64,000 bases of DNA from an uncultured Nitrososphaerota archaeon. GTDB taxonomy: Archaea > Thermoproteota > Nitrososphaeria > Nitrososphaerales > CADDZS01. This document shows, piece after piece, positions 48,531 to 62,678 of this stretch; the first letter of the stretch is position 1; every line of letters begins with the position of its first letter. Below the pieces are notes generated by a model, which was given only the letters and a program-made list of their open reading frames with translations, had not been told where the DNA came from and did not search any database. Both the position numbers and the translations under genes were made by a program. Location: assembly GCA_963799845.1 (NCBI GenBank), contig CAWCYI010000004.1:256001-320000 (forward strand). The letters are read 5' to 3'.

Positions 48531-48887
48531 TTACGCCCTCATTGAAGACCACAATCGCGACAGTCTCGTGGCAACGTCCTCGTTCAGCTCAACGTCCAAC
48601 ACAATCTCGCCCTGATTCAATTGTAATTTTATGCTCCTGAAAGAGCTCCTGTAAAGTTCAAATTTCTTGCCGTCGTCAGTGATGATCGTCTTTTCAACCG
48701 TGAGTAGACCAATATCCCGCATTTCATTTACGCGGCGATACGACGTACTAATCGGAATCTGTTCGGACGCGCTCAGCTCTTCAACCGACCTCGCTCGATC
48801 TATCGTTCCCAAGAGAATCTTCCTCGAATATTCGTCAGCCAGCGCCCTAATCAGCGCGTCGCGGACGTTCTGGCCTGTTATTCTCAT
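48531..48887 (-). CDS. ArsR-like winged-HTH transcriptional regulator
   Basis: ALADEYSRKIL, IPISTSYRRV, DGKK...Y; paralogue of 61371..61826. Confidence 0.9.
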   Translation of the reverse strand: MRITGQNVRDALIRALADEYSRKILLGTIDRARSVEELSASEQIPISTSYRRVNEMRDIGLLTVEKTIITDDGKKFELYRSSFRSIKLQLNQGEIVLDVELNEDVATRLSRLWSSMRA

Positions 48888-48956
48888 TTCTTCGACCCGG
48901 CATTGAAAAGACCTAGCTTTCGGAACTTTTTGATTGATCTAATAAGGCAGTACACG

Positions 48957-48974
48957 ATTCTCACGAGTGATAAT
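48957..48974 (-). promoter_or_regulatory. Motif A site, wHTH promoter
   Basis: ATTATCA-CTCG-TGAGAAT, then 11 nt, then TTATTAGA (minus strand). Confidence 0.75.
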
Positions 48975-48990
48975 GATCTGAAGGGGTAGA

Positions 48991-50843: not shown

Positions 50844-51682
50844 TCAAGAAGTGCGGGTTGTCTCGGCTATATTCAACTGGCCTAATTCCCACGTCTTCAC
50901 GGTCAGATCCCAAGGAGTTACAATACCTCGATCTGTAAGAGCACAGTCATTGTCCTTCAGCGACAGCAATTCGGCTGCATCTGAGATTTGTTTTCTGCCG
51001 TCGATCCAGGGGACTTCTCCAAGTTCGATATCATCCAATGTTCCATCAAGCAATCTGTTCTGAAACCTCAAGATGTGGCCGAGTCTCTCTTGTTGGAACA
51101 AGTACGCAAGAATCTGTTTGTCAGAGATCACAGTCCTTGTACCTGAAATCTGGACACGTCTGAATTTTCGACGCCCAATCTCCTTCAAGGATACGTCGAG
51201 CTTGTTCCCCGAGAAAGTTGGAAGACAGGGAATGTCACTATATCATCGACTACAAGCTTCGACGAAAAAATTCCAAGATGATACAATTTCAAAAGATCTT
51301 TTACAGAAATTTTTTCATACTGACTTTTTTTTCCATGAACCAGGGCAAATCCAAAAGTGGATGATTGGAAGACATGCAGTAGAGAAAGAATGTCATCGTT
51401 CGAACTGATCGTTCCGGCCAGAAGGGAACTCTCGAGACAAGGAGAATTGAGAAACGAAGCGTAATTATGCGGATTCATTTGCATCATTTTCGAAACAATT
51501 GAATATCCGGAAATAACCAGTGGCCTTGCCTCCGAGGATCCCTGATTCGATTCTATTAACAGAAGGTCGAAATCATTTTCACGAAGTTTTTGAATCGCCT
51601 CTAGGATTATTGTCCTGCCGGATATAGTCTTGAGAGGTCTCACATCCAGACGTGGAAGGATTTCTTCTAGGTTAGCTGCCAA
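50844..51682 (-). CDS. Degenerate four-CBS-domain protein (apparent missing base at about 51203)
   Basis: Adding one A restores RGTKLDVSLKEIGRRKFRRV; shares GYS, FGFA, RRV and GIVTPWDL with 62782..63588. Confidence 0.8.
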
Positions 51683-51696
51683 TTTATTTATTCATC

Positions 51697-52114
51697 CTAT
51701 GGAAATATTTGTTCGCCGGACTCTGCATCCTTCACAGTAATCGCTTTGTAGGGACACATCTGTGCTGATACGATTATCTTTTCGCTTGGAACTTCTCTGT
51801 CCTGGACATCCTTCATCCCAAGTGGTTCGTCCGCATTTCTTCCAAAGCCCAAGTTGGAGTAATCCAGTGCGAATACTTCCGGTGCAAGTGCCACGCAGAC
51901 TTTCAACTCCCATGCATTTCCCCTGCTCGATGCTCAAAATTAGCCTGCGATTGTCCCGAGTCACGATTTCCTTCTCCCCTCTTCTTTGCAAGCTATCCAG
52001 AGTGCCGGAAACTAGACGAATTATCACGTCAGAATAATCTTCGTTTTGTTTCTTAGCCCTTTGTATCGTATCGTATGCTCTTGCAGAGATTTCTATCGTT
52101 ATTTCGTCAGTCAT
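51697..52114 (-). CDS. RHH (VapB3/DUF217-like) DNA-binding domain fused to a single-cluster ferredoxin (apparent extra base at 51899)
   Basis: TIEIS..AY.....AK...EDYSDVIIRL; removing one base gives KCMGVESCVALAPEVF...AQMCPYKAI. Confidence 0.8.
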
Positions 52115-52162
52115 GAAACTCAAACAGTTAAGCACAGATTATGATAATAAAGAGCCACCACG

Positions 52163-52180
52163 ATTACCAAGTTTGGTTTT
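52163..52180 (-). promoter_or_regulatory. Motif A site, RHH-ferredoxin promoter
   Basis: AAAACCA-AACT-TGGTAAT, then 11 nt, then TTTATTAT. Confidence 0.7.
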
Positions 52181-52373
52181 GAGACTTCTCTTACAGACTG
52201 GAGCTCTGAGAGTCAGCGATTCGCGATCCCCAGTTTTGACGGTAAGAATTGTGAATCCAGGTTGAGGGTACTCAACGGCCGGGCCCCCTCGAGACAATCG
52301 TCAAACTAGGATTCTAATCTTCGAGAGTAAGGAGGTGTCGTTTGAAATGGAGGTTCTCCGCTTGTAATTCCAC

Positions 52374-53336
52374 TCACGACATTGTCGTTCCTGCGTTACC
52401 ATCCAGTGCTTGCCTGCCTTGCTCCAGGGATGCAATTATCGCCTTCTCTCCCCCTGCTTCCAAAAAATTGATGGCGGCTTGAACTTTGGGTCCCATGCTC
52501 CCGGGAGGAAACTGCCCCTCTGTCAAGTATTTTCTTGCCTCCTCGATTGTTAGCGAATCAAGCTGCTTTTCATTAGTTTGACCATAATTTAGTGCAAGTT
52601 TCTCAACATCAGTCAGGATCAGTAGCACATCGACTTTCATCAACGAAGCAATCAAACTGGCGCTCAGGTCTTTATCGATCACTGCTTCAACTCCCACCAG
52701 GCTTCCGTCATCATTTCTTACCACTGGGATACCTCCTCCCCCTGAATGAATAATCATGAATCCTTCGTCGAACATTTTCCGAATTACCTTGAGTTCGACA
52801 ATCGATTTTGGTTTTGGTGATGGAACAACCCTGCGATACCCCTTGTTACTATCGTTCACGACGATCCACCCCTTCTCACTTGCGAGGTTTCTCGCCTCTG
52901 TTTCTGAATAGTAAGGGCCGATTGGTTTGGTCGGATTTGCAAATGCCGAGTCGTTCCTGTCTACTATTGTTTGCGTGAGGATCGTGACCATTGGAATGTC
53001 CAACCCCGCCTTCCTTAGTTCATTGTCTAGGGACTGTTGCAACATATAACCGATCATGCCCTGACTTTCTGCCCCACAAACATCGAGAGGCATTGGCGGG
53101 AGAACATTTTTCGCGAGATCGTCTCTTAGTAGGATATCTCCGACTTGGGGGCCGTTTCCGTGAGTGATTGTTAACAGTGCTCCGTGAAGAAACAAATCTA
53201 CAAGTTGAGAAGATGTGTGACGTATGTTGGCAAACTGCTGTTCGGAAGTTCCAGTTTCTTTCCGTTGAAGAATCGCGTTTCCCCCGAGAGCTACAAGAAC
53301 TTTCATCTGGCTAACCAAATCCTCACCTGAATACAA
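52374..53336 (-). CDS. arcC: Carbamate kinase (true start probably 53318 or 53306)
   Basis: ALGGNA, HGNGPQVG, PTKPIG, GGGGIPV, AVIDKD, GSMGPK. Confidence 0.97.
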   Translation of the reverse strand: MYSGEDLVSQMKVLVALGGNAILQRKETGTSEQQFANIRHTSSQLVDLFLHGALLTITHGNGPQVGDILLRDDLAKNVLPPMPLDVCGAESQGMIGYMLQQSLDNELRKAGLDIPMVTILTQTIVDRNDSAFANPTKPIGPYYSETEARNLASEKGWIVVNDSNKGYRRVVPSPKPKSIVELKVIRKMFDEGFMIIHSGGGGIPVVRNDDGSLVGVEAVIDKDLSASLIASLMKVDVLLILTDVEKLALNYGQTNEKQLDSLTIEEARKYLTEGQFPPGSMGPKVQAAINFLEAGGEKAIIASLEQGRQALDGNAGTTMS

Positions 53337-53493: not shown

Positions 53494-54648
53494 ATGTCCT
53501 ATTCACATTCAATCGATCATCTCAGAGTTTCAGATTTTGTTGAACCTGCTTCTATGTTTAATTCATCTGATTCTGTATCGCATTTGATCGGAACTTTGAA
53601 GAGATCCAAGGGGTATGAGGGTTTCGTCGAGGAAACCAGTCGGACTTGCACGATAACTCTCCGCGAAATTCTAGATGTTGAGAGCGCAGATACGACTAAG
53701 GTCTCCGCACTAATGCTTCCAGTACCGAGATTGAACGCAGGCGATTCGATTATCTTTGCAGCAAAACTGATGTTCGAAAACAAATTGAGGGCGCTCCCAG
53801 TCTACGAAAATGGGAAACTGCAGGGAAAAGTAACTTCGCCATCGATTGTCAGAAGAATGATAGAATCAAATCCTCCCGAAGAAACGCTCCCAAAGATTAT
53901 GACTCCGGGTCCTATTTGCCTTGTAGATTCGGATGCAATGTCGAAAGCGAGGAGTATAATGATAAGAAGAAAAATCGACCAGCTCCCGATTCTCAGAGCG
54001 GGAGAACTGAGCGGCGTAATAACCTCGGAAGATATCGTCTTCAGCTTTCTTTCTGCTCCGCTGGATAGAGATTCGAAGGGAGGGCGAGAAGACAGCCGAT
54101 TTAGTGCCCCGGTGTCAACTCTTGCCTCCGTCGAAACGACATCTAACGACATCAAGGACTCACTTTCAAATGTCGCTCAGGAGATGCTGAGGATGCGGAC
54201 GAACTATTCAGTAATATTGGGCGGTGGATCTGTCAAAGGCATAGTTACGTTTAGAGACTTTCTGAAGTTGCTGCCGATCAGTGGAGCAAATGAGGACGTA
54301 CCAGTCTCGATCATTGGACTGCCCGACAATCCACTAGAAGCAGAACTGGTCACGTCGAAATTCACCGCTTCGGTGCGCATGCTGCAGAGGATGGATCCCA
54401 CCGTGAGCGAGGTCAGAGCCGTAATCAAGAACAAGGAGGTTAATTCGAATACGATACTGCATCAGGTACAGGTCTTCATCGACAGTTCAAAGTGGCACGA
54501 AAGCTATGAAGCTTCCGGGTACGACATCTCGAAAGTATTCGCCGAGATTGATACATGGATTAAGCGAATAGCCTCAAAGCATGACTTCAAACCTGACCGG
54601 GAAAGAATGTCATTCAAGACTGTCAGGCACTCTGACGGAAACGTCTAA
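53494..54648 (+). CDS. Four CBS domains plus a C-terminal HPF/RaiA-like domain (Hib-type ribosome hibernation factor candidate)
   Basis: CBS motifs LPV/GVITSED/GIVTFRD; C-terminal beta-alpha-beta-beta-beta-alpha pattern VSIIG...EVRAVIK...QVQVFI...ASGYDISKVF. Confidence 0.75.
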   Translation: MSYSHSIDHLRVSDFVEPASMFNSSDSVSHLIGTLKRSKGYEGFVEETSRTCTITLREILDVESADTTKVSALMLPVPRLNAGDSIIFAAKLMFENKLRALPVYENGKLQGKVTSPSIVRRMIESNPPEETLPKIMTPGPICLVDSDAMSKARSIMIRRKIDQLPILRAGELSGVITSEDIVFSFLSAPLDRDSKGGREDSRFSAPVSTLASVETTSNDIKDSLSNVAQEMLRMRTNYSVILGGGSVKGIVTFRDFLKLLPISGANEDVPVSIIGLPDNPLEAELVTSKFTASVRMLQRMDPTVSEVRAVIKNKEVNSNTILHQVQVFIDSSKWHESYEASGYDISKVFAEIDTWIKRIASKHDFKPDRERMSFKTVRHSDGNV

Positions 54649-56561
54649 TCCCGGATCATACCTTCTCTTCGGAAGTTCCGGGTCTGATCAAATATTCCGT
54701 ACTGCTCGGTAAATTCTCTGAATATCTGTCGTTTCTTCAGCTGATGTTTCTCTTCCGTAGCCAGTAAGTTCGCCAATGTTCTTGTGGCATCCAAAATATG
54801 TGGACCCTTGTTCAGCATGACGCACTCTGCCCGAATTCCCATTACTGCATCGGTTATCTCTGCCCTTGAAGGCAATCCACTTTTCGCCATGGTCTCCAAG
54901 ACCTGAGTTGCAAAGATAACTGGAATGTGAGATGCTTCACACATACAAAGAATGTCTTCTTGGACGAAAGCAAGATTTTCAAATCCGACCTCAACTGCCA
55001 GATCTCCTCTTGCGATCAAGATTCCGAATTTCGGAAGGTTCAGTCCAGCCAGTAGAATTTCTCCGAGCTTGTGTACAGCTTCTCTGGTTTCTATTTTCGC
55101 GATGATTCCGAAATCGTCGTGACCCAATTTCTTGAGCGCCTCGTGTAAAGAATGCAAGTCCTCGGCGCGATGAACGAAAGATAGTCCAACTGCGGTTGCA
55201 TGAGAGGTAATGAAGTCCAGATTATTCTCGTCCTCGGGTGTAAGAGCTGGAATTATGATTGATGAATCAGGAAAGTTCAGCCCCTTCTCCGACTTGATTC
55301 CCGCCGTGCCTTCAGTCGGAGAAAGAATTTCAAGCTCCAAGAACTCGTCGTTTATTTTCCGAATGATACAACCGATCTTTCCATCGTCAATGAAGACACG
55401 TTCCCCGATTTTTGCAAAGTCTAACGCCCTTGGCAACGTACAGCTGATCCCTGCTGGTTCCTCATTTGTCTCAGGGGTACCTAGCCGTGTTGGATCTCGA
55501 AAGAGATTCAATTTGTCTCCAGTCTTCACCTGAATTTCTACGGGCTGCGGCTTCATTGCCCCAGTAGTCAGTTTAATCCCGCTTTCTGATTCAATTGAAA
55601 TTCCTTCTTCCAGATATGCTGTTCTGGCTAAACCTACTCTGATTTTAGTCGGAGTTACCTTCTGAAGGACGACGAAAATTCTTTGTCGATCTCGCGCGTC
55701 GTTGAACTTTAGCCTCTCACCCACTTTCAGGTTCGAAATATTGGGATGATCCTTCAAGGCTATCGTAAACCCGGGCATCATCCCGGTCAGGTTTTGCTTT
55801 TCGGTCAGTGTTGCATCGCAATCCAACAATCCCTCCAGCAGTCTCGAAGTCTTTCCCGCGAAGTCCTTAGGGACTGAGAGTTTTAGAGGCCGTTCTACAA
55901 GCGCAAGAGGGCCCGTTCGAATCTTCGGGCCGGCAAGATCCATCAGAATTCGACAAGTCCTTCCGATCCCTTTTCCTCGTTGTACCAATCTCTCTTCGGC
56001 CGTCCTGATTGAGTTGATCAACATCAACCATTCACTTTCGGAATCGTGGGCGCAGTTAATTCGAGCGATGTCCATTCCTGAGAGCAACAACTGCTCTAAC
56101 AGTTCAGGTTGGTAAATGTACGGGGAATCGAGGGTCACCATTATTCGAGTCTTCCTTCCATCACGTGGTCGACCGAGAAGCTGTTTGCTTCGTTCTTCGA
56201 GAAGGGAATTCGCGAGAGAAAACGTGGTCTTATGAAGAGAAGTCTTGGTCGGAGGTATCCCTAGGTTTCCAAGCACCTTCACTATGTTTGATAAAGTGTC
56301 TCCTTCCAATCTTCCAAGAGAGGACAGTCCTAGATTTGAGAGTGATATTTGAAGCAGCGAAAGGTCATGCTCTCGTAGGGCAAGATACAACAGAAAGTTG
56401 TCTCGACTGTATTCATTCTGCGGAGAAAACACGGGAAATCTCGGAGCAACAGTTTCAGATTTTCTCAAAATTTCCGAGTATAGATCGTAGAGTTGTTTTC
56501 CAACCTTAACTCGATCTGGATCGTCTCTTTCCACAACAAGAGGAACTTGACTGTCTACCAT
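54645..56561 (-). CDS. pyk: Pyruvate kinase, long form with expanded B domain
   Basis: RIMVT, ARINCAH, DLAGPKIR, AKIE, ARGDL, ATQ, CVMLNKG. Confidence 0.95.
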   Translation of the reverse strand: MVDSQVPLVVERDDPDRVKVGKQLYDLYSEILRKSETVAPRFPVFSPQNEYSRDNFLLYLALREHDLSLLQISLSNLGLSSLGRLEGDTLSNIVKVLGNLGIPPTKTSLHKTTFSLANSLLEERSKQLLGRPRDGRKTRIMVTLDSPYIYQPELLEQLLLSGMDIARINCAHDSESEWLMLINSIRTAEERLVQRGKGIGRTCRILMDLAGPKIRTGPLALVERPLKLSVPKDFAGKTSRLLEGLLDCDATLTEKQNLTGMMPGFTIALKDHPNISNLKVGERLKFNDARDRQRIFVVLQKVTPTKIRVGLARTAYLEEGISIESESGIKLTTGAMKPQPVEIQVKTGDKLNLFRDPTRLGTPETNEEPAGISCTLPRALDFAKIGERVFIDDGKIGCIIRKINDEFLELEILSPTEGTAGIKSEKGLNFPDSSIIIPALTPEDENNLDFITSHATAVGLSFVHRAEDLHSLHEALKKLGHDDFGIIAKIETREAVHKLGEILLAGLNLPKFGILIARGDLAVEVGFENLAFVQEDILCMCEASHIPVIFATQVLETMAKSGLPSRAEITDAVMGIRAECVMLNKGPHILDATRTLANLLATEEKHQLKKRQIFREFTEQYGIFDQTRNFRREGMIRD

Positions 56562-56661: not shown

Positions 56662-56671
56662 CACCCGAATA

Positions 56672-56689
56672 ATTCTCAGTGTTGGGAAT
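56672..56689 (+). promoter_or_regulatory. Motif A site, permease-arcB-arcA operon promoter
   Basis: ATTCTCA-GTGT-TGGGAAT, then cgtctccatgg, then ATAAATAT. Confidence 0.75.
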
Positions 56690-56744
56690 CGTCTCCATGG
56701 ATAAATATCGTCAGAGTGGTCTTTCAAAGTCAGGTCACTGAGAA

Positions 56745-58334
56745 ATGCAGTCAAGTCAGAGCCACAAAGAGGAAGACAAACCTGCGCTGAAGAAGGAACT
56801 TGGTCTCTGGAGCCTCGTGGGCCTGGGCGCTGGCGGTATCATCGGATCTGGGATATTTGGGCTGATAGCCGCTTATGGTGCAGACGCAGGACCTGCGCTG
56901 ACTTTGGCCATCGTCTTTGTCGGGATCATCATGACCATACTTGCGCTAATCTATGCGGAGTTAGGCTCAAGGTTCCCACTTACGGGAGGTCCCTACTCAA
57001 TCCCAAGACTTGCACTGGGTAATTCTGCGGGCTACCTCATCGGCTGGGGATACTTCATTTACGCTTTCACCGGCACTGCCGCGATTATAGATGTCTTTGT
57101 AACCTATCTCGGTTTCTATGTACCCGGCCTCGCTGTCGGTCTGACACTTACCCCTCTCGGGATAGCGATCTCTCTGGTGGCGCTGGTCGTCTTTACCGTA
57201 ATCAACGTCCTGGGAGTCAAGTGGGGTGGACTATTTAGTATAGTGACCACAGTCACGAAGCTGATTCCACTAATTCTTTTTGCGGCCGTGGGCTTGTTTT
57301 ACTTGAATTTCGGAAATTTCACGCCGTTCATGCCCTTCGGCTGGACTGGGATCGCTGTGGCGATGGCTCTCGCTGTGTTCATGTTCACGGGCTTCGAGGG
57401 TGTCGTCATTCCGAGCGGCGAGGTAAAGAATTCATCCAAGACTATTCCACGCGCCATGATAATCACGATGGCAATAGTCGTCGTAGTCTATGTGCTAATT
57501 GGGGTGGCTTTCGTCGGCATGATCAATTGGTCGGGCCTCGGTATTCATGTGGGTGACTGGTCCTATAGCACAGGCATAGGGAGCCTATCTTCACCGCTCT
57601 CTGATGTCGCGAAGGGTGCGGGCTACGGAATACTTGCGGCTGTGGTGACCATTGGCGCAATCATCAGCACGGCAGGAGCTGGTAGCGACTGGGTCCTTTT
57701 CCAGGGTCGGATCCCATATGCGATGGCCGACGACGGGCTCTTCCCCAAGGTCATGGACAGGGTCAATAGCAAATATCGTACTCCCGCTCTTTCGATTATC
57801 TTTGCCGCGATCCTGACCGGAATAATCCAGGTGCTCTTTCCGTTCTTCCCAAACGTTGTGCTACTCGCATCAATCACGACCCTCATCCCATACGCAGCCG
57901 CTTCGGTATCGCTCGCAATCTTGAGAAAGAGCCCTCAGTCAGGAGTCGCGGATCACTTCAGACTCCCTGCAGGCATGATATTCGCCTTCCTAGGGTTCGT
58001 CTTATCAAGCGTGCTGATCTACTGGGCTACCTGGCCACTGACACTAGTGGGAGTGATTTTGACACTCATCGGGTTTCCCCTCTATTTGTTCACGAAGAAC
58101 AAGAAGATGGAGTGGCGCAGGCAGGTATGGTTGTGGGTTTACGTATTGGGGCTGACAGTGATATCGTTCATCGGAGATACGAACTTCGTCACTTCAGGCA
58201 TCCTGCCTATTCCAGGCCCGCTTGGGTACCTACCTTTACCGTACGACATAGTGGCCGTAGAGGTGTTTTCAGCGTTGATATTCTTCTGGGCTTACAAGGC
58301 CAATGTAGGAAAGGTCGTTGAGCTAAAAGCATGA
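56745..58334 (+). CDS. APC-family amino acid permease; probable arginine/ornithine antiporter by context
   Basis: IIGSGIF, YAELG, F.F.GFE; first gene of the arc operon. Confidence 0.92.
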   Translation: MQSSQSHKEEDKPALKKELGLWSLVGLGAGGIIGSGIFGLIAAYGADAGPALTLAIVFVGIIMTILALIYAELGSRFPLTGGPYSIPRLALGNSAGYLIGWGYFIYAFTGTAAIIDVFVTYLGFYVPGLAVGLTLTPLGIAISLVALVVFTVINVLGVKWGGLFSIVTTVTKLIPLILFAAVGLFYLNFGNFTPFMPFGWTGIAVAMALAVFMFTGFEGVVIPSGEVKNSSKTIPRAMIITMAIVVVVYVLIGVAFVGMINWSGLGIHVGDWSYSTGIGSLSSPLSDVAKGAGYGILAAVVTIGAIISTAGAGSDWVLFQGRIPYAMADDGLFPKVMDRVNSKYRTPALSIIFAAILTGIIQVLFPFFPNVVLLASITTLIPYAAASVSLAILRKSPQSGVADHFRLPAGMIFAFLGFVLSSVLIYWATWPLTLVGVILTLIGFPLYLFTKNKKMEWRRQVWLWVYVLGLTVISFIGDTNFVTSGILPIPGPLGYLPLPYDIVAVEVFSALIFFWAYKANVGKVVELKA

Positions 58335-58468
58335 TAAGAAGCCTTCCGCTCGGCGACTCTGCATCCTTCCTCCTTGAATCGATTCTTAGACGAGCCGCCA
58401 AACTGAACAAAGAAATAAAGCAGGAAATGGAGCTCGATTTGTTGAATCGAATGGTGGTCAGTGTATGA
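58331..58468 (+). CDS. 45-aa ORF resembling the N-terminus of the downstream OTCase
   Basis: ATGA overlaps at both ends; 13/45 identities with ArcB aa 1-46 by manual alignment. Confidence 0.65.
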   Translation: MIRSLPLGDSASFLLESILRRAAKLNKEIKQEMELDLLNRMVVSV

Positions 58469-59388
58469 CTCGATCGTTCCTTTCAGTTTCAGATATCTCT
58501 GCCGTGGAAATGGACGTGATACTAACGCGGACCAGGAGCATCAAGGCGAGCATCAAATCAAGGGAGAAGATTGCAACTCTCGCGGATTACGTTGTATGTC
58601 TTCTGTTCGAAAAGCCCTCAACTAGAACGAGCGCGGCTTTCGAAGTTGCGACCCTCCGGCTTGGGGGCAATCCGCTTTACTTTTCGTCGCAAGAACTTCA
58701 ACTAAGCAGGGGCGAGCCCGTCAAGGACACAGCTAGAGTACTAGGTTCAGATATGGACGGGATAGTGGCGAGAGTATTCGCTCACGATACCGTCAATCAG
58801 CTGTCGATGTATTCTGGGATTCCGGTAATAAACGGTCTGAGCGATTTAGAACACCCGACACAGATCGTATCGGACTTCTTCACCATTCAGGAGGTCAAGG
58901 GCAAGTTGAAAGGATTGAAAATGGCCTACATAGGAGATGGTGACAACGTCTGTAATTCTCTGCTTCTCGGGGCGGCCATGGTCGGAATGAACTTGTCGGT
59001 TGCCTGCCCTATAGGATACGAGCCAAATAGCGAGATCCTGGAAAGAGCTTTGGTGGATGCCAAGATTACAGGATCATCATTAGTTGTCACAAACAGCCCG
59101 AGTGAAGTAGTCAGGGACGCTGATGTCCTCTATACCGATGTCTGGGTGAGCATGGGAGAGGAGGCAGAGCAGGAAAAGCGAATGAAAGCCTTTGTGGGAT
59201 ACCAGATCAACTCTCAACTAATGAAACTGGCGAAAGGCAACGCAGTTGTGATGCACTGTCTCCCGGCACACAGAGGCCTTGAAATCACTGATGACATTAT
59301 CGAGGGAGCCCAGTCAATTGTGTGGCAGCAGGCGGGCAACAAACTTCCCGGCGCTGCTAGCGTTCTAGAATTTTTCCTGAGAAAATAA
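58465..59388 (+). CDS. arcB: Ornithine carbamoyltransferase (catabolic by context)
   Basis: STRT, HPTQ, WVSMG, HCLP. Confidence 0.95.
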   Translation: MTRSFLSVSDISAVEMDVILTRTRSIKASIKSREKIATLADYVVCLLFEKPSTRTSAAFEVATLRLGGNPLYFSSQELQLSRGEPVKDTARVLGSDMDGIVARVFAHDTVNQLSMYSGIPVINGLSDLEHPTQIVSDFFTIQEVKGKLKGLKMAYIGDGDNVCNSLLLGAAMVGMNLSVACPIGYEPNSEILERALVDAKITGSSLVVTNSPSEVVRDADVLYTDVWVSMGEEAEQEKRMKAFVGYQINSQLMKLAKGNAVVMHCLPAHRGLEITDDIIEGAQSIVWQQAGNKLPGAASVLEFFLRK

Positions 59389-59392
59389 ATAA

Positions 59393-60709
59393 GTGAAAAG
59401 GAAATTGGTAGCAAAAATTAGGGCGGAGTTCGATCGACTGAGACGAGTGGCGATTCACAGGCCGGGAATCGAAATGTTCTTCGGCTTGCTGGCGCCAGAA
59501 GCGTCTCTTTACGAGAGAGTGTTCAACAGGTACGGGGCAAGAATGGAGCATGAAAGGCTCGAATATACGCTCAGGCACGAATTCGGAATTGAAGTTTTTC
59601 GAATCAAGGAAAGATTGCTCGAGCTGGCGGACAAAAAACCGGAAATCAGGGACAAATTAGTTGTCGCCGGCCTGAACGATCTCAAGTTCACCGGAGACGA
59701 AAAAACAGTAGCCGAAGCAAAAAAAGAAGTTCAAGAAGGATCTGCAATGTACGACGGTGGCCACTTTTTCAATCTGCTTTTACTCCACCCGACATTGGAC
59801 CTTGAAAAAGGAGGAAAGGCGGCCAGGGCAATTCATCTGGGTGTCACCGAAAATGATCCTCTTGCAAACCTCTATTTCATGAGAGACCAACAGGCTGTAA
59901 CTGACAAAGGGATCTTCCTATCGCGAATGTCGAAACCCCAAAGAGCAGGGGAACCTTCCCTGACCAAGTTCGTATGGCAGGCGTTGGGAGAGCAGATAAT
60001 TCACGAAACCCAATCCCCTGGGACCTTTGAAGGCGGGGATTTCATTCCCATGAAAGATTTCGCCCTCGTCGGCTTCGGAGATAGAACCAACAGAAGCGGA
60101 GTTGATCAGATGCTTGAATTTGGTTTAAATTTTGATGAAGTGGCGGTGGTCCATCAACCCAGCCACCCCCTGATACCCGGAGACGAGATTGATCCGATGA
60201 TCGACATGCACGTCGACACCTACTTTAACATCGCAGGCAGTGGAGTCGCAGTAGGATCTGAACTGTTACTGAAACGGGCTAAAGTCGAAATTTACGACCA
60301 CGAAGGTGAGAATGTTTACAAGAAATCTGAACGCGAAACAAACCTGCATGATTACATCACGAAGAAAGGTTTTGACATCATAAATCTAACCACACTCGAA
60401 CAGCTATGCTATGCTTCAAATTTTCTATGCATAAAAGACGGGCAGATTTTGGCAATTGAAGTTGAAAGAGAAGTAAAAAATGTCCTCAAGACCCTTGCCT
60501 CGCAGGCTGAAGAGAACCCACATCGCTATGGTAGGCTCCTTGACCAAGCCCGAAAGGATTACCAGGACCTTCAGGATTTAGGCGGTTTCTTTCCTCACAA
60601 GAAGGAGATTTACCAACACGGAATAGATGCGTATGCGATCGTCATGACAAACCTGACCGGCGGATATGGGGGAGCGCACTGCATGACGGCGGTGCTAGAA
60701 AGAAATTAG
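59393..60709 (+). CDS. arcA: Arginine deiminase
   Basis: NLYFMRD, EGGD, MHVDT, GYGGAHCMT. Confidence 0.93.
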   Translation: MKRKLVAKIRAEFDRLRRVAIHRPGIEMFFGLLAPEASLYERVFNRYGARMEHERLEYTLRHEFGIEVFRIKERLLELADKKPEIRDKLVVAGLNDLKFTGDEKTVAEAKKEVQEGSAMYDGGHFFNLLLLHPTLDLEKGGKAARAIHLGVTENDPLANLYFMRDQQAVTDKGIFLSRMSKPQRAGEPSLTKFVWQALGEQIIHETQSPGTFEGGDFIPMKDFALVGFGDRTNRSGVDQMLEFGLNFDEVAVVHQPSHPLIPGDEIDPMIDMHVDTYFNIAGSGVAVGSELLLKRAKVEIYDHEGENVYKKSERETNLHDYITKKGFDIINLTTLEQLCYASNFLCIKDGQILAIEVEREVKNVLKTLASQAEENPHRYGRLLDQARKDYQDLQDLGGFFPHKKEIYQHGIDAYAIVMTNLTGGYGGAHCMTAVLERN

Positions 60710-61370: not shown

Positions 61371-61826
61371 TTAAAGAATAGGAGCTATTTTCTGGAGAGC
61401 TGAGGTACCGATCGCTGCCGACTCTTGCAATTTTTCAGGGATTGCTTGGCTAGCTTCTTTCGGTCTCAATGTTGACCAGATGTCACTCAACTTATCCGCT
61501 GGATCTCTATTGGAAACAAGATCTACCTTCAGTTCTCCTGATTCTAGCTGAATAGTCGCGTTCCTGAATGACGACTTGTAACACACGAATTTCTTACCGT
61601 CATCATGAATTATTGTTCTATCCGGTCTGACGATACCGTATTCCAGCATCTCGTGAATCCTTCGATAACAAGTGCTGACAGGAATGTGCTGTTCTTTGCT
61701 GATCTCCTCGATTGGAAGGGAATTTGAGATGATCGTAAGAACAATTTTTCGAGAATATTCGTCCGCGAGTACCTTTATGACTTCAAGGGCCTTTTCCTCG
61801 TCAGAGACGAGCAATGAATGATTCAC
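61371..61826 (-). CDS. ArsR-like winged-HTH regulator, paralogue of 48531..48887
   Basis: LADEYSRKI, IPVSTCYRRI, DDGKKF..Y.SSFR. Confidence 0.9.
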   Translation of the reverse strand: MNHSLLVSDEEKALEVIKVLADEYSRKIVLTIISNSLPIEEISKEQHIPVSTCYRRIHEMLEYGIVRPDRTIIHDDGKKFVCYKSSFRNATIQLESGELKVDLVSNRDPADKLSDIWSTLRPKEASQAIPEKLQESAAIGTSALQKIAPIL

Positions 61827-62045: not shown

Positions 62046-62678
62046 TTAGGACTTTTCAAAATATCCGGTTATTATCCTTCTTTCCGCCCTTCTCAGGATC
62101 TCGGATGCGGTGCTTGGGGAAATCCCGACTGCTTTGGACAATTCTTCCGTAGAAATACGCTTTGGATAATCATAGTACCCAAGTTCCAGTGCAGATTTCA
62201 TGACGCGCTCCTGCTTGGGAGTCAAAGCCCTAGTTGGGCTCATCTTCGCAATCTCTCCAATCTTGTAGATAACCCCATTCTCGTGCAAAGATTGAAGAAA
62301 ATTTGGAATGCCCTCACCACTCATGAAAAGCTTGTACGTCATCTGGCAATTACTCTCGGTCACGGCAGGGCCGACAAAGTATCCGCTCTGGGATTGCATG
62401 ATCAAAAAGCATACTAGGCAGTCCTTGCTGGTTACTGCGCCTACTAGTCTATTCGGTCCCACGCTCGCAAGATCGCATTCCGTAACATCAGGCAGGTTAC
62501 CCAAATCCTTTCTCAGATGTTCCGCGGTAACTTTCTCGGATGTAATCTCGACAAAGTGAGTGATGTTCCGTTCAGAGTCCTGCGACTTCATACTTAGTAC
62601 CCTTACGATTGCAGAATCATTGCGGCAGATGTTATCGATCCAGCTTTCTGGGTTGACGCTGAACTGTAGCTGGATCAC
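62046..62678 (-). CDS. HTH-10 (Bat-type) regulator with a Cys-containing N-terminal domain
   Basis: LTPKQ..V...ALELGYYDYPKRI...LRRAE; DCLVC motif. Confidence 0.9.
   Translation of the reverse strand: MIQLQFSVNPESWIDNICRNDSAIVRVLSMKSQDSERNITHFVEITSEKVTAEHLRKDLGNLPDVTECDLASVGPNRLVGAVTSKDCLVCFLIMQSQSGYFVGPAVTESNCQMTYKLFMSGEGIPNFLQSLHENGVIYKIGEIAKMSPTRALTPKQERVMKSALELGYYDYPKRISTEELSKAVGISPSTASEILRRAERRIITGYFEKS

What the first reader, a model, noticed from the sequence alone, without database searches (positions are those of the whole stretch)
51697..52114. RHH DNA-binding domain fused to a ferredoxin: possible one-component redox/O2 sensor hidden by a frameshift
Seen: the N-terminal ~40 aa match the VapB3/DUF217-type ribbon-helix-helix pattern. 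After removing one base at an AGCT site, the C-terminus reads C-M-G-V-E-S-C...CP, a single-cluster ferredoxin whose second ligand is not Cys. No PIN toxin gene is adjacent. Known: CxxXxxC...CP ferredoxins with a non-ligating X bind [3Fe-4S]. Inference: an Fe-S-gated transcription factor, functionally analogous to FNR/SoxR but on a different scaffold, inside an arginine-fermentation island. I do not know of a characterised example.
Basis: partly seen in the sequence, partly recalled or inferred. Interest (0 to 1): 0.85.

Follow-up and report, generated by a model that had tools for sequence, protein, structure and literature searches.

The report
Ribbon-helix-helix protein fused to ferredoxin
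A soil archaeon carries an intact small gene that joins a DNA-binding-type domain to an iron-sulfur ferredoxin, an uncharacterised family that may link gene control to oxygen or redox state; the apparent frameshift is most likely an assembly error.

Summary
On the minus strand (52114..51697), dropping one base at 51899 joins two frames into a 138-aa protein. Contigs from 3 of 3 soil runs covering that place (one study) lack the base, and the exact fused protein is already on record. The frameshift is therefore most likely an assembly error.

The protein has an N-terminal ribbon-helix-helix fold, an almost invariant linker (LQRRGEKEI) and a single-cluster ferredoxin. The ferredoxin has three invariant Cys (CxxA/VxxC...CP, the [3Fe-4S] type).

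Full-length relatives are common in Nitrososphaerales metagenome genomes and are labelled only "ferredoxin/predicted CopG family antitoxin". I found no characterisation and no PIN toxin nearby.

New here is a palindrome, ACGATTCTCA-N4-TGAGAATCGT, abutting the TATA box. It marks about 30 promoters in this genome, including arginine fermentation, USP, CBS, HSP20 and NrdG-like genes; in relatives it also precedes cytochrome bd and hemerythrin. It precedes the fusion gene in 10 of 26 loci.

That places the gene in a low-oxygen/stress-type regulon. It does not show that the fusion protein reads the site: a CxxC-bearing HTH_10 regulator in the window fits the phyletic pattern slightly better.

Fe-S-gated regulator is my leading reading (about 0.45). 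A tethered electron carrier is the main rival.

The parts
51697..52114 (-). RHH-ferredoxin gene, 138 codons plus TAG stop. It is intact once the surplus base at 51899 is left out.
   Evidence: Searches give the frames; the base is absent from contigs of 3 of 3 covering runs; the exact 138-aa product is on record.
51899..51899 (.). Surplus base that splits the frame; a probable assembly indel.
   Evidence: table 4: 'left out 1' in X1 (938-nt contig, no other difference), X2 (272 nt) and X3 (172 nt). All three runs are from one study.
51983..52114 (-). Ribbon-helix-helix domain, residues 1-44: strand about 4-10, helices 11-20 and 27-41.
   Evidence: PF02697 at E 8.9e-5, below cut-off; secondary structure. 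NikR 1q5v_A Z 5.0 over residues 2-43, PutA RHH-DNA 2rbf_A Z 4.8, AmrZ, SvtR, ArtA.
51965..51991 (-). Nearly invariant linker L42-Q-R-R-G-E-K-E-I50. It leads into an extra strand (47-51) packed on the ferredoxin domain.
   Evidence: conservation; strand E47-51.
51700..51946 (-). Single-cluster ferredoxin domain, residues 57-138. Cys ligands are C67 (51914-51916), C73 (51895-51897) and C120 (51754-51756); Val70 sits at the second-ligand position.
   Evidence: Fer4_15 and Fer4_13 above cut-off; 1siz_A, E 9.3e-4; 8amp_A Z 8.3, rmsd 2.0, 64 residues aligned; invariant Cys.
52144..52189 (-). Promoter region. It holds a TATA-like TTTATTAT (52144-52151), a proximal half-site TGGTAATCGT (52160-52169, 2 mismatches) and a distal half-site AGAAGTCTCA (52180-52189). 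The halves are 10 nt apart instead of 4, so this is a degenerate copy of the family's operator.
50844..51682 (-). Downstream CBS-like gene, 15 nt after the stop, itself split into two frames (51682-51185 and 51188-50844).
   Evidence: the two pieces align to residues 2-146 and 161-276 of one 282-aa homologue, L015:3519-4367. That homologue matches CBS. No reads were laid here.
52374..53336 (-). Carbamate kinase, directly upstream on the same strand.
   Evidence: AA_kinase; the same order (kinase, then RHH-Fd) in L031 and L032.
56669..56692 (.). Palindrome site ATAATTCTCAGTGTTGGGAATCGT, 53 nt before the first ORF of the permease-OTC-ADI operon (56745-60709, +).
   Evidence: OTC and ADI are by Pfam; the first ORF clusters with an amino-acid permease.
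48954..48977 (.). Palindrome site ACGATTCTCACGAGTGATAATGAT, 67 nt before an HTH_20 regulator gene (48531-48887, -).
62046..62678 (-). HTH_10 regulator, 210 aa, with CxxC at residues 86-89. It is the rival candidate reader of the palindrome.

Best explanation
The locus is one intact gene; the extra base at 51899 is an assembly error. That part is shown, apart from the caveat that all three runs come from one study. The gene encodes a 138-aa protein with three parts: an N-terminal ribbon-helix-helix domain of the VapB/CopG type, an almost invariant linker (LQRRGEKEI), and a C-terminal single-cluster ferredoxin. The ferredoxin has three invariant cysteines in a CxxA/VxxC...CP motif, which predicts a [3Fe-4S] cluster. 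The fold and motif are shown; cluster binding is inferred.

The gene belongs to a regulon of about 30 promoters marked by the palindrome ACGATTCTCA-N4-TGAGAATCGT, about 8 nt upstream of the TATA box. The sites are shown; that they form a regulon is inferred. The gene content of that regulon points to low oxygen or energy stress.

My leading reading is inferred. The protein is a small DNA-binding Fe-S protein that works as a one-component redox/O2-responsive regulator or co-regulator. RHH dimers would pair on DNA, and the state of the ferredoxin domain (holo/apo or oxidised/reduced) would change binding. The architecture resembles NikR and PutA, and the logic resembles FNR. Whether it reads the palindrome itself (about 0.2) or another, unidentified site is open.

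Separate confidences: fusion real and conserved 0.95; frameshift an artefact 0.85; [3Fe-4S] cluster 0.75; DNA-binding regulator 0.45.
For: Frameshift as artefact. 3 of 3 covering runs lack base 51899 and show no other differences over 938, 272 and 172 nt. The exact product is in the protein collection, from a 938-nt contig, and a 138-aa near-identical member sits on a 36.8-kb contig. The next gene downstream is also split.

Family. 150 of 158 candidates reached E <= 1e-3, and 113 of the 120 listed cover at least 93% of the query. Open full-length frames occur in 8 relatives' genomes. 19 full-length loci were found in species-representative genomes, nearly all titled Nitrososphaerales or Thaumarchaeota.

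Structure. The AF2 model has pLDDT 86.7. The C-domain matches M. tuberculosis Fdx 8amp_A (Z 8.3) and R. palustris 4ov1_A (Z 8.1). The N-domain matches RHH proteins over its whole length: NikR Z 5.0, PutA-DNA Z 4.8, AmrZ, SvtR, ArtA.

Cluster motif. C67, C73, C120 and P121 are invariant in 105 of 105 sequences. Position 70 is Ala in 102 and Val in 3. 97 of 105 sequences have exactly three Cys. Passages of PMC6237146 give this motif as the [3Fe-4S] type.

DNA-binding features. K/R at position 5 in 73, T/S at 6 in 78, N/S at 10 in 91, K/R at 12 in 101, at 21 in 104 and at 22 in 99, each of 105.

Operator. The extended palindrome with <= 4 of 20 mismatches occurs 32 times in G000, against a mean of 2.0 in 3 shuffles. 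29 of those 32 sites lie within 130 nt of an ORF start, next to a TATA-like box. A full site (<= 6 of 20 mismatches) lies within 160-200 nt upstream of the fusion gene in 10 of 26 unique loci, against 29 of 1864 random windows. Half-sites in register with the TATA box occur in 4 more loci.

Regulon content. In G000: the arc operon, a second carbamate-kinase-like gene, Usp, 3 CBS proteins, HSP20, an NrdG-like radical-SAM protein, an FAD_binding_2 protein and a cupredoxin. In G007 and G011: cytochrome bd subunit I, hemerythrin, Usp and a radical-SAM protein.

No PIN toxin was found among the neighbours scanned.
Against: Nothing here shows DNA binding or sensing.

Among 251 genomes of the order, 22 are motif-enriched (>= 6 sites). 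Only 9 of the 16 genomes with the fusion's N-terminal part are enriched, and G151 (98% complete) has the gene but 0 sites. 13 of the 235 genomes without the gene are enriched, including G145 with 10 sites and G226 with 11. Relatives of the HTH_10 regulator do better: 16 of 22 enriched genomes have one at E <= 1e-15. These genomes are kin, so the counts are not independent.

A 7-N4-7 palindrome is also the usual geometry for a helix-turn-helix dimer (recalled).

The window's own promoter copy is degenerate, with a 10-nt spacer. 12 of 26 loci have no site at all.

The strand residue at position 8 is variable. It does not co-vary with the site: L103 has an EIRVS strand with a canonical site.

The nearest relatives of the ferredoxin domain (40-49% identity) carry N-terminal transmembrane helices instead of the RHH, in ammonia-oxidiser genomes and in G000 itself. 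They share the C-terminal GEQIFP tail. That looks like an electron-carrier module.

[3Fe-4S] ferredoxins with Ala at this position are ordinary, oxygen-tolerant carriers in bacteria (PMC6237146, passages).

PF02697 is below its curated cut-off for this protein.
Confidence: 0.45

Rival explanations
1. It is an electron-carrier ferredoxin. The RHH-like head only dimerises or tethers it, as the transmembrane helices anchor its paralogues. It is a regulated member of the low-oxygen regulon, not its regulator. Another factor, most plausibly the CxxC-bearing HTH_10 protein at 62046-62678, reads the palindrome.
For: The closest ferredoxin-domain relatives are membrane-anchored three-Cys ferredoxins with the same CMG[AV]xSC...CPYKAI...GEQIFP signature. 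The best structural matches are electron-transfer ferredoxins. The HTH_10 phyletic pattern fits motif enrichment better: 16 of 22 enriched genomes against 9 of 22. HTH_10, HTH_20 and the fusion gene sit in the same island in G000, G007 and G011. From memory, ferredoxin fdxA is a member of the mycobacterial DosR hypoxia regulon, and haloarchaeal HTH_10 regulators (Bat, DmsR, NarO) respond to low oxygen.
Against: I know of no RHH domain used solely as an oligomerisation tag on a redox carrier (recalled). The RHH keeps the basic and polar surface residues typical of DNA binders. No conserved redox-partner gene lies beside it: neighbours vary widely across 20 loci. No palindrome was found in front of the HTH_10 gene in the loci I looked at (WIN, L015, L018), so that protein is not obviously autoregulated.
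Confidence: 0.33
2. The frameshift is real in this strain, so the gene is a recent pseudogene here, whatever the family does elsewhere.
For: The window as given contains the extra base. All contigs lacking it come from one study and could be a co-occurring sister strain. Two other records of the family also look frame-damaged: P0132 with P0123 on one 8-kb contig, and P0116.
Against: The contigs are otherwise identical over up to 938 nt. The downstream gene is split too, and the genome is in 9 long contigs. That combination is typical of uncorrected indel errors in long-read assemblies (the last point is inference).
Confidence: 0.1
3. It is a VapB-type antitoxin whose C-terminal toxin-binding tail was replaced. 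It would still act in a toxin-antitoxin pair with an unrecognised toxin.
For: The N-terminal match is to the VapB antitoxin family PF02697 and to PRK13696. The source's own name for relatives includes 'CopG family antitoxin'.
Against: No PIN or other toxin family was found among the neighbours scanned. The neighbour genes are not conserved. The search for short stand-alone relatives of the N-domain returned only one fragment.
Confidence: 0.03
4. Programmed +1 ribosomal frameshifting joins the two frames.
For: Both frames are open across the junction.
Against: All full-length relatives are single open frames without stops. Contigs of the same sequence lack the base.
Confidence: 0.01

Closest known systems
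NikR (nickel-responsive RHH repressor)
   Same: An N-terminal RHH joined to a C-terminal metal-binding sensor domain in one polypeptide. The N-domain of the model superposes on apo-NikR 1q5v_A (Z 5.0, rmsd 2.2, 42 residues). NikR's tetramer places two RHH dimers on a palindrome (recalled).
   Different: NikR's C-domain is an ACT-like nickel site, not an Fe-S ferredoxin. There is no sequence relationship beyond the RHH fold. The NikR operator halves are 16 bp apart (recalled), not 4.
PutA (RHH fused to a redox enzyme)
   Same: An RHH DNA-binding head on a protein whose redox cofactor state decides between DNA binding and another role (recalled). Structural match to the PutA RHH-DNA complex 2rbf_A (Z 4.8, 43 residues).
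   Different: PutA is a large flavoenzyme of more than 1000 aa. Here the redox module is an 80-aa ferredoxin.
Fe-S transcription factors FNR, SoxR, IscR/NsrR, WhiB
   Same: The proposed logic: an Fe-S cluster gates DNA binding in response to O2 or redox state. FNR/ANR controls arginine fermentation and cytochrome bd in bacteria and binds a 5-N4-5 palindrome (recalled).
   Different: No homology: those use CRP, MerR, Rrf2 or Wbl scaffolds with [4Fe-4S] or [2Fe-2S] clusters. This protein has an RHH scaffold with a canonical three-Cys ferredoxin fold. Its function is not shown.
VapB antitoxins of Pfam PF02697 / PRK13696
   Same: The best sequence match of residues 6-36, including the E-x-x-S-D-V-I-x-R-L signature.
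   Different: The score is below the curated cut-offs. There is no VapC/PIN partner, and the C-terminal half is a ferredoxin instead of a toxin-binding tail.
Single-cluster [3Fe-4S] ferredoxins (P. furiosus Fd 1siz, M. tuberculosis Fdx 8amp, R. palustris HaA2 4ov1/4id8)
   Same: Fold (Z 8.1-8.3; Foldseek E about 1e-3) and the CxxXxxC...CP motif with a non-Cys second position. Passages of PMC6237146 and the abstract of PMC9868604 describe such proteins.
   Different: Those are free-standing carriers of about 65 aa, often P450 partners. This one has a 56-aa RHH and linker extension and an extra N-terminal strand.
Membrane-anchored three-Cys ferredoxins of Nitrososphaerales (unnamed; L034-L047, G000 C6 and C8)
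   Same: 40-49% identity over residues 54-138, the same cluster motif and the same C-terminal tail.
   Different: The N-terminus is one or two transmembrane helices instead of an RHH. They also occur in ammonia-oxidiser genomes that lack the fusion.

Membership tests
Ribbon-helix-helix superfamily (Met_repress clan) | A strand-helix-helix fold of about 45 residues | tested here: met
   AF2 model helices 11-20 and 27-41 after an extended N-terminal segment. Whole-domain structural matches to NikR, PutA, AmrZ, SvtR, ArtA, MazE9 and TacA at Z 4.3-5.0. Z values of this size are modest for so small a domain.
Ribbon-helix-helix superfamily (Met_repress clan) | Dimer formed by pairing of the N-terminal strands | not testable with these tools
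   Needs size-exclusion, cross-linking or a structure. See Tried and rejected for the modelling attempt.
Ribbon-helix-helix superfamily (Met_repress clan) | Sequence-specific DNA binding through the strand | not testable with these tools
   Only indirect evidence: conserved K/R at positions 5, 12, 21 and 22 and T/N/S at 6 and 10, and an operator-like palindrome upstream in 10 of 26 loci.
VapB antitoxin, Pfam PF02697 | Profile match above the curated cut-off | tested here: not met
   23.6 bits against 27.9, E 8.9e-5, and only profile positions 2-32 of 69. The precomputed Pfam column lists PF02697 for many homologues.
VapB antitoxin, Pfam PF02697 | An adjacent VapC/PIN toxin gene | tested here: not met
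   No PIN family in the 12 window neighbours scanned, nor in the neighbour clusters scanned from related loci. Not every small ORF was scanned.
Single-cluster ferredoxin (Fer4_13 / Fer4_15) | Profile match above the curated cut-off | tested here: met
   Fer4_15 at 30.3 bits against 22.4; Fer4_13 at 25.5 against 24.5.
Single-cluster ferredoxin (Fer4_13 / Fer4_15) | CxxXxxC(x)nCP ligand motif, with three Cys predicting [3Fe-4S] | tested here: met
   C67, C73, C120 and P121 are invariant in 105 of 105. Position 70 is Ala in 102 and Val in 3, never Cys. The meaning of the motif is from passages of PMC6237146.
Single-cluster ferredoxin (Fer4_13 / Fer4_15) | Ferredoxin fold | tested here: met
   8amp_A Z 8.3, rmsd 2.0, 64 of 65 residues; 4ov1_A Z 8.1. 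1siz_A Foldseek E 9.3e-4.
Single-cluster ferredoxin (Fer4_13 / Fer4_15) | A bound Fe-S cluster | not testable with these tools
   Needs UV-vis, EPR or native mass spectrometry on purified protein.
Fe-S cluster transcription factors (FNR, SoxR, Rrf2, Wbl) | Homology to one of those scaffolds | tested here: not met
   No such family appears among the Pfam or NCBIfam hits or the structural matches. Only a functional analogy is proposed.

The most novel reading that the evidence does not exclude
The RHH-[3Fe-4S] ferredoxin is itself the oxygen/redox sensor that reads ACGATTCTCA-N4-TGAGAATCGT next to BRE/TATA as a dimer of dimers. In soil Nitrososphaerales it would switch on a low-oxygen programme of 30-60 promoters: arginine fermentation, cytochrome bd, hemerythrin, USP/CBS/HSP20 and an anaerobic ribonucleotide-reductase activase. 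That would be the first Fe-S transcription factor on a ribbon-helix-helix scaffold and a defined O2-response circuit in a group with no genetic system.
Probability: 0.2. Interest if true: 0.8.

Novelty: new variant of a known kind. Interest (0 to 1): 0.55.

Why it matters
Non-ammonia-oxidising soil Thaumarchaeota are abundant and uncultured. How they cope with shifting oxygen is debated; passages of PMC10640624 describe conflicting aerobic and anaerobic predictions. This work gives a concrete, testable circuit: a defined 24-bp operator, a list of target promoters with a low-oxygen flavour, and two candidate regulators within one 15-kb island. One of them is an RHH joined to a ferredoxin, an architecture for which my literature searches found no characterised example. 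If that protein is the sensor, it adds a new scaffold to the Fe-S transcription factors. If it is a carrier, it shows a ferredoxin module re-tethered from membrane to another anchor. There is also a practical lesson: this assembly carries indel errors that split genes, two of them within 1.3 kb here.

Tried and rejected
Homodimer modelling (complex prediction, two copies with alignment A1) returned no verdict: score 0.28 against a mark of 0.42. It says nothing either way.

A PDB sequence search with the first 60 residues found only designed helical-repeat proteins and one GTPase at weak E-values. That was uninformative; the fold comparison was needed.

The search for short stand-alone relatives of residues 1-46 gave 1 hit among 1 candidate. 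It is a 46-aa fragment (P0132) from a contig that also holds a 71-aa C-terminal piece (P0123), so it is a second broken record and not a free RHH.

The scan of 1.84 billion representatives gave 95 hits at E <= 1e-3, 18 at <= 1e-10 and 3 at <= 1e-30. Only about five representatives span both domains, so at the 50% identity level the family is compact.

Literature searches:
- 'ribbon-helix-helix' + 'ferredoxin' + 'Thaumarchaeota': 0 papers.
- 'ribbon-helix-helix' + 'ferredoxin' + 'iron-sulfur cluster' + 'fusion': 2 papers, neither relevant by title and abstract.
- 'CopG' + 'ferredoxin domain' + 'transcription': 0 papers.
- 'ribbon-helix-helix' + '4Fe-4S' + 'transcription': 10 papers, 9 listed, none on such a protein by title and abstract.
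- 'NarO' + 'Haloferax volcanii' + 'inverted repeat' + 'denitrification': 0 papers, so my statements on NarO, DmsR and Bat are recalled only.
Subscription journals are not in the library, and supplements were not opened.

Specificity co-variation idea. Loci whose strand reads I-[RK]-[VI] seemed to lack the palindrome. I rejected this because L103 (EIRVS) has a canonical site with 4 of 20 mismatches.

Conservation of regulon orthologues. A tblastn of 35 G000 queries against 16 loci around perfect sites of G007 and G011 (16 of the 35 perfect sites) found only Usp, an ABC ATPase 712 nt away, and the fusion gene itself. The targets are alike in kind rather than orthologous.

Within the window alone the palindrome is not significant: 2 sites, chance mean 0.56, and 12 of 100 shuffles reached 2. 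The case rests on the whole genome.

I saw no second conserved element between the TATA box and the ATG of the fusion gene when reading the promoters by eye.

The AmoA family search in G000 found nothing, but its control rang in no genome. I therefore make no claim about ammonia oxidation.

RNA run X5: one 161-nt contig with 1 mismatch covers 51639-51799. It is too little to claim expression.

Full report
WHAT IS THERE. The feature is a gene on the minus strand. From the ATG at 52114, frame 0 reads MTDEITIEISARAY...IEQGKCMGVES and then continues open but meaningless to 51692. The +1 frame holds CVALAPEVFALDYSNLG...MCPYKAITVKDAESGEQIFP and stops at 51697-51699. Reading the junction as one four-letter step gives a 138-aa protein, P0002. 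Pfam places Fer4_15 (30.3 bits, cut-off 22.4) and Fer4_13 (25.5 bits, cut-off 24.5) on residues 62-127. VAPB_antitox PF02697 (23.6 bits, E 8.9e-5, below the 27.9 cut-off) falls on residues 6-36. NCBIfam gives PRK13696 at E 7.8e-7, also below cut-off.

THE FRAMESHIFT. The window lies in a 4.6-Mb genome of 9 contigs, 86.7% complete. I laid contigs of four public runs on 51400-52600. Every contig that covers place 51899 lacks one base there and is otherwise identical. These are X1 (938 nt), X2 (272 nt) and X3 (172 nt), that is 3 of 3 covering runs, all soil metagenomes of one study. Without the base the strand reads GAA AGC TGC, or E-S-C. The exact 138-aa product is on record from a 938-nt contig. 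A 138-aa member of the same 90% cluster, differing at one residue, sits on a 36.8-kb contig. The gene 15 nt downstream is also split. Its two pieces (51682-51185 and 51188-50844) align to residues 2-146 and 161-276 of one 282-aa CBS-type homologue. Two split genes within 1.3 kb of a long-contig assembly point to uncorrected indel errors. Because the three runs may come from the source sample or a sister strain, a real private mutation stays possible, at about 0.1. Programmed frameshifting is excluded in practice, since relatives are single open frames.

THE FAMILY. A search of 5.8 billion clustered proteins returned 150 of 158 candidates at E <= 1e-3. Of the 120 listed, 113 cover at least 93% of the query at about 133-145 aa. 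They are named, where named at all, 'ferredoxin/predicted CopG family antitoxin' or 'ferredoxin [Nitrososphaerota archaeon]'. Among 40 relatives' genomes, full-length open frames occur in G004, G007, G009 (two), G010, G011 (two), G012, G028 and G029. A scan of species-representative genomes gave 19 full-length loci, nearly all titled Nitrososphaerales or Thaumarchaeota MAGs. In a sample of 251 genomes of the order (at least 80% complete), the N-terminal 56 residues find 16 genomes in three families. None falls in the two large families that hold the small single-contig genomes. At 50% clustering only about five representatives span both domains, so the family is lineage-restricted and compact.

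ANATOMY. In 105 aligned members, C67, G69, S72, C73, C120, P121 and Y122 are invariant. Position 70, the second ligand position of a [4Fe-4S] motif, is Ala in 102 and Val in 3 and is never Cys. 97 members have exactly three Cys. Passages of PMC6237146 give CXXA/GXXC(X)nCP as the [3Fe-4S] ferredoxin motif and show that variants at this position were all isolated with [3Fe-4S] clusters. The AF2 model (pLDDT 86.7, pTM 0.65) has an extended N-terminal segment, helices 11-20 and 27-41, and then a ferredoxin fold preceded by an extra strand (47-51). Against solved structures, residues 57-130 match M. tuberculosis Fdx (8amp_A, Z 8.3, rmsd 2.0, 64 residues), R. palustris ferredoxin (4ov1_A, Z 8.1) and P. 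furiosus [Fe3S4] ferredoxin (1siz_A, Foldseek E 9.3e-4). Residues 1-44 match a run of ribbon-helix-helix proteins over their whole length: NikR Z 5.0, the PutA RHH-DNA complex Z 4.8, then MazE9, TraM, AmrZ, TacA, SvtR, HP0222 and ArtA. Each Z is modest, but the matches are consistent. The RHH keeps K/R at position 5 (73 of 105), T/S at 6 (78), N/S at 10 (91) and K/R at 12, 21 and 22 (101, 104, 99). The middle strand residue, position 8, varies. The most conserved stretch outside the cluster motif is the linker L42-Q-R-R-G-E-K-E-I50. Its role is unknown.

A SISTER ARCHITECTURE. The nearest relatives of the ferredoxin domain alone (40-49% identity over residues 54-138) share CMG[AV]xSC...CPYKAI...GEQIFP. 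They carry one or two N-terminal transmembrane helices instead of the RHH. They occur in ammonia-oxidiser MAGs (L034-L047) and twice in this genome, on C6 and C8. The same three-Cys module is thus tethered either to the membrane or to an RHH.

SURROUNDINGS. The arginine-fermentation island is real: carbamate kinase directly upstream on the same strand (52374-53336), OTC (58465-59388) and arginine deiminase (59393-60709), plus an ORF at 56745-58334 that clusters with an amino-acid permease. The order kinase then fusion gene recurs in L031 and L032. Otherwise neighbours vary across 20 loci: CBS proteins, Usp, thioredoxin, DUF302, hemerythrin, VKOR, cytochrome b, an AMP-binding enzyme, an HTH_20 protein and an HTH_10 regulator. 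No PIN toxin was seen.

A CONSERVED OPERATOR AND A REGULON (NEW). Upstream of the fusion gene in many loci lies ATTCTCA-N4-TGAGAAT, flanked by ACG and CGT, ending about 8 nt before a TTTTAT-type box and 40-66 nt before the start codon. In G000 the extended 24-nt palindrome with <= 4 of 20 mismatches occurs 32 times, against a mean of 2.0 in three shuffles. The 14-letter core is perfect 3 times and has one mismatch 17 times. 29 of the 32 sites lie within 130 nt of an ORF start, with the CGT side facing a TATA-like box. Pfam on 30 downstream ORFs gave an HTH_20 regulator, three CBS proteins, HSP20, Usp, an NrdG-like Fer4_12/radical-SAM protein, a second carbamate-kinase-like gene, FAD_binding_2, cupredoxin, CoxG, a NosD-like protein, a thioesterase, an SDR, transport proteins and others. 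Eight had no family. One further site sits 53 nt before the permease-OTC-ADI operon. Relatives have many more sites: G007 has 14 and G011 has 21 perfect cores, with reversed-pattern controls of 0. There the sites precede cytochrome bd subunit I, hemerythrin, Usp, a radical-SAM protein, VKOR, ApbE, PadR, AsnC-type and TFX regulators and others. The mix resembles low-oxygen or dormancy regulons known from bacteria (recalled: FNR/ANR, DosR). Across 26 unique fusion-gene loci, a full site (<= 6 of 20 mismatches) lies upstream in 10. Four more loci, including the window, keep a half-site in register with the TATA box, and 12 have none. Among random 160-nt windows of the same loci, 29 of 1864 reach that score. 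The window's own copy has its halves 10 nt apart.

WHO READS THE OPERATOR? This is the weak point. Among the 251 genomes, 22 have at least 6 sites. Of the 16 genomes with the fusion gene, 9 are enriched. G151 (98% complete) has the gene and no site, and 13 genomes without the gene are enriched, among them G145 and G226 with 10 and 11 sites. Relatives of the HTH_10 regulator in the window (62046-62678, with a CxxC at residues 86-89) are found in 51 genomes. These include 16 of the 22 enriched genomes; at E <= 1e-30, 13 of 16 carriers are enriched. These genomes are kin and the cut-offs were set after seeing the data, so this is only a lean. Still, it leans toward the HTH_10 protein. A 7-N4-7 palindrome one helical turn across also suits a helix-turn-helix dimer as well as two RHH dimers. 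In the other direction, I saw no palindrome in front of the HTH_10 gene in the three loci I inspected. The fusion gene is the gene most often preceded by the site in my sample, but that sample was centred on the fusion gene.

READING. The shown results are these: an intact, conserved RHH + three-Cys ferredoxin protein, a real palindromic promoter element defining a regulon with low-oxygen and stress content, and frequent placement of the fusion gene under that element. The inference is that the protein binds DNA through its RHH and that its [3Fe-4S] domain modulates binding, making it a redox or oxygen-responsive regulator or co-regulator. I put this at about 0.45, and at about 0.2 that it reads the palindrome itself. 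The main rival, at about 0.33, is a ferredoxin electron carrier re-tethered by an RHH-like head and merely induced with the regulon. Both readings can be tested with purified protein and the defined 24-bp site.

NOVELTY. The sequence family is already in databases under generic names, so it is not unseen. My literature searches found no characterised RHH-ferredoxin protein. As an architecture it is a new variant of known kinds: RHH one-component regulators such as NikR and PutA, and Fe-S transcription factors. The operator and regulon are, as far as these searches go, undescribed. The library lacks most subscription journals, and supplements were closed.

Noticed in passing
G000 genome-wide; in the window 48954-48977 and 56669-56692: The palindrome ACGATTCTCA-N4-TGAGAATCGT, abutting TATA-like boxes, marks about 30 promoters (32 sites against 2.0 expected). 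Ten of the sites cluster in C4:1,020,750-1,068,380. The targets have a low-oxygen/stress flavour.
   Followed up: yes
window 62046-62678 (-): An HTH_10 regulator, 210 aa, with CxxC at residues 86-89. It lies 10 kb from the fusion gene and beside the arginine deiminase operon. An HTH_20 paralogue lies next to it (61371-61826), and the same trio recurs in G007 C65 and G011 C139. It is a candidate reader of the palindrome.
   Followed up: partly
window 50844-51682 (-): The CBS-like gene just downstream is split into two frames near 51190-51235, a second probable indel error. No reads were laid there.
   Followed up: partly
G000:C6:1699597-1699839 (-), G000:C8:38990-39232 (-); L034-L047: Membrane-anchored three-Cys ferredoxins (145-257 aa) with the same cluster motif and C-terminal tail as the fusion protein. 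They are widespread in Nitrososphaerales, including ammonia-oxidiser MAGs, and their function is unknown.
   Followed up: partly
P0132 + P0123 (one 8-kb contig); P0116: Other public records of the family are also frame-damaged. One is split into 46-aa and 71-aa pieces. One has a compensated frame excursion across the linker.
   Followed up: no
window 51639-51799: A 161-nt contig from a peat metatranscriptome run (X5) matches with one mismatch. It bridges the 3' end of the fusion gene and the start of the downstream gene. This is a weak hint of co-transcription in a near-identical organism.
   Followed up: no
window 54645-56561 (-) and 53494-54648 (+): A 638-aa protein with a pyruvate-kinase barrel only in its C-terminal half, and a 384-aa protein with three CBS stretches, lie between the carbamate kinase and the arc operon. 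CBS-domain genes are unusually dense in this region.
   Followed up: no
L015 5819-5909, L017 5843-5929; G010:C78:7382-7468: In some relatives two palindromes sit 69-73 nt apart between the fusion gene and a divergent small ORF. This suggests cooperative or divergent control.
   Followed up: no
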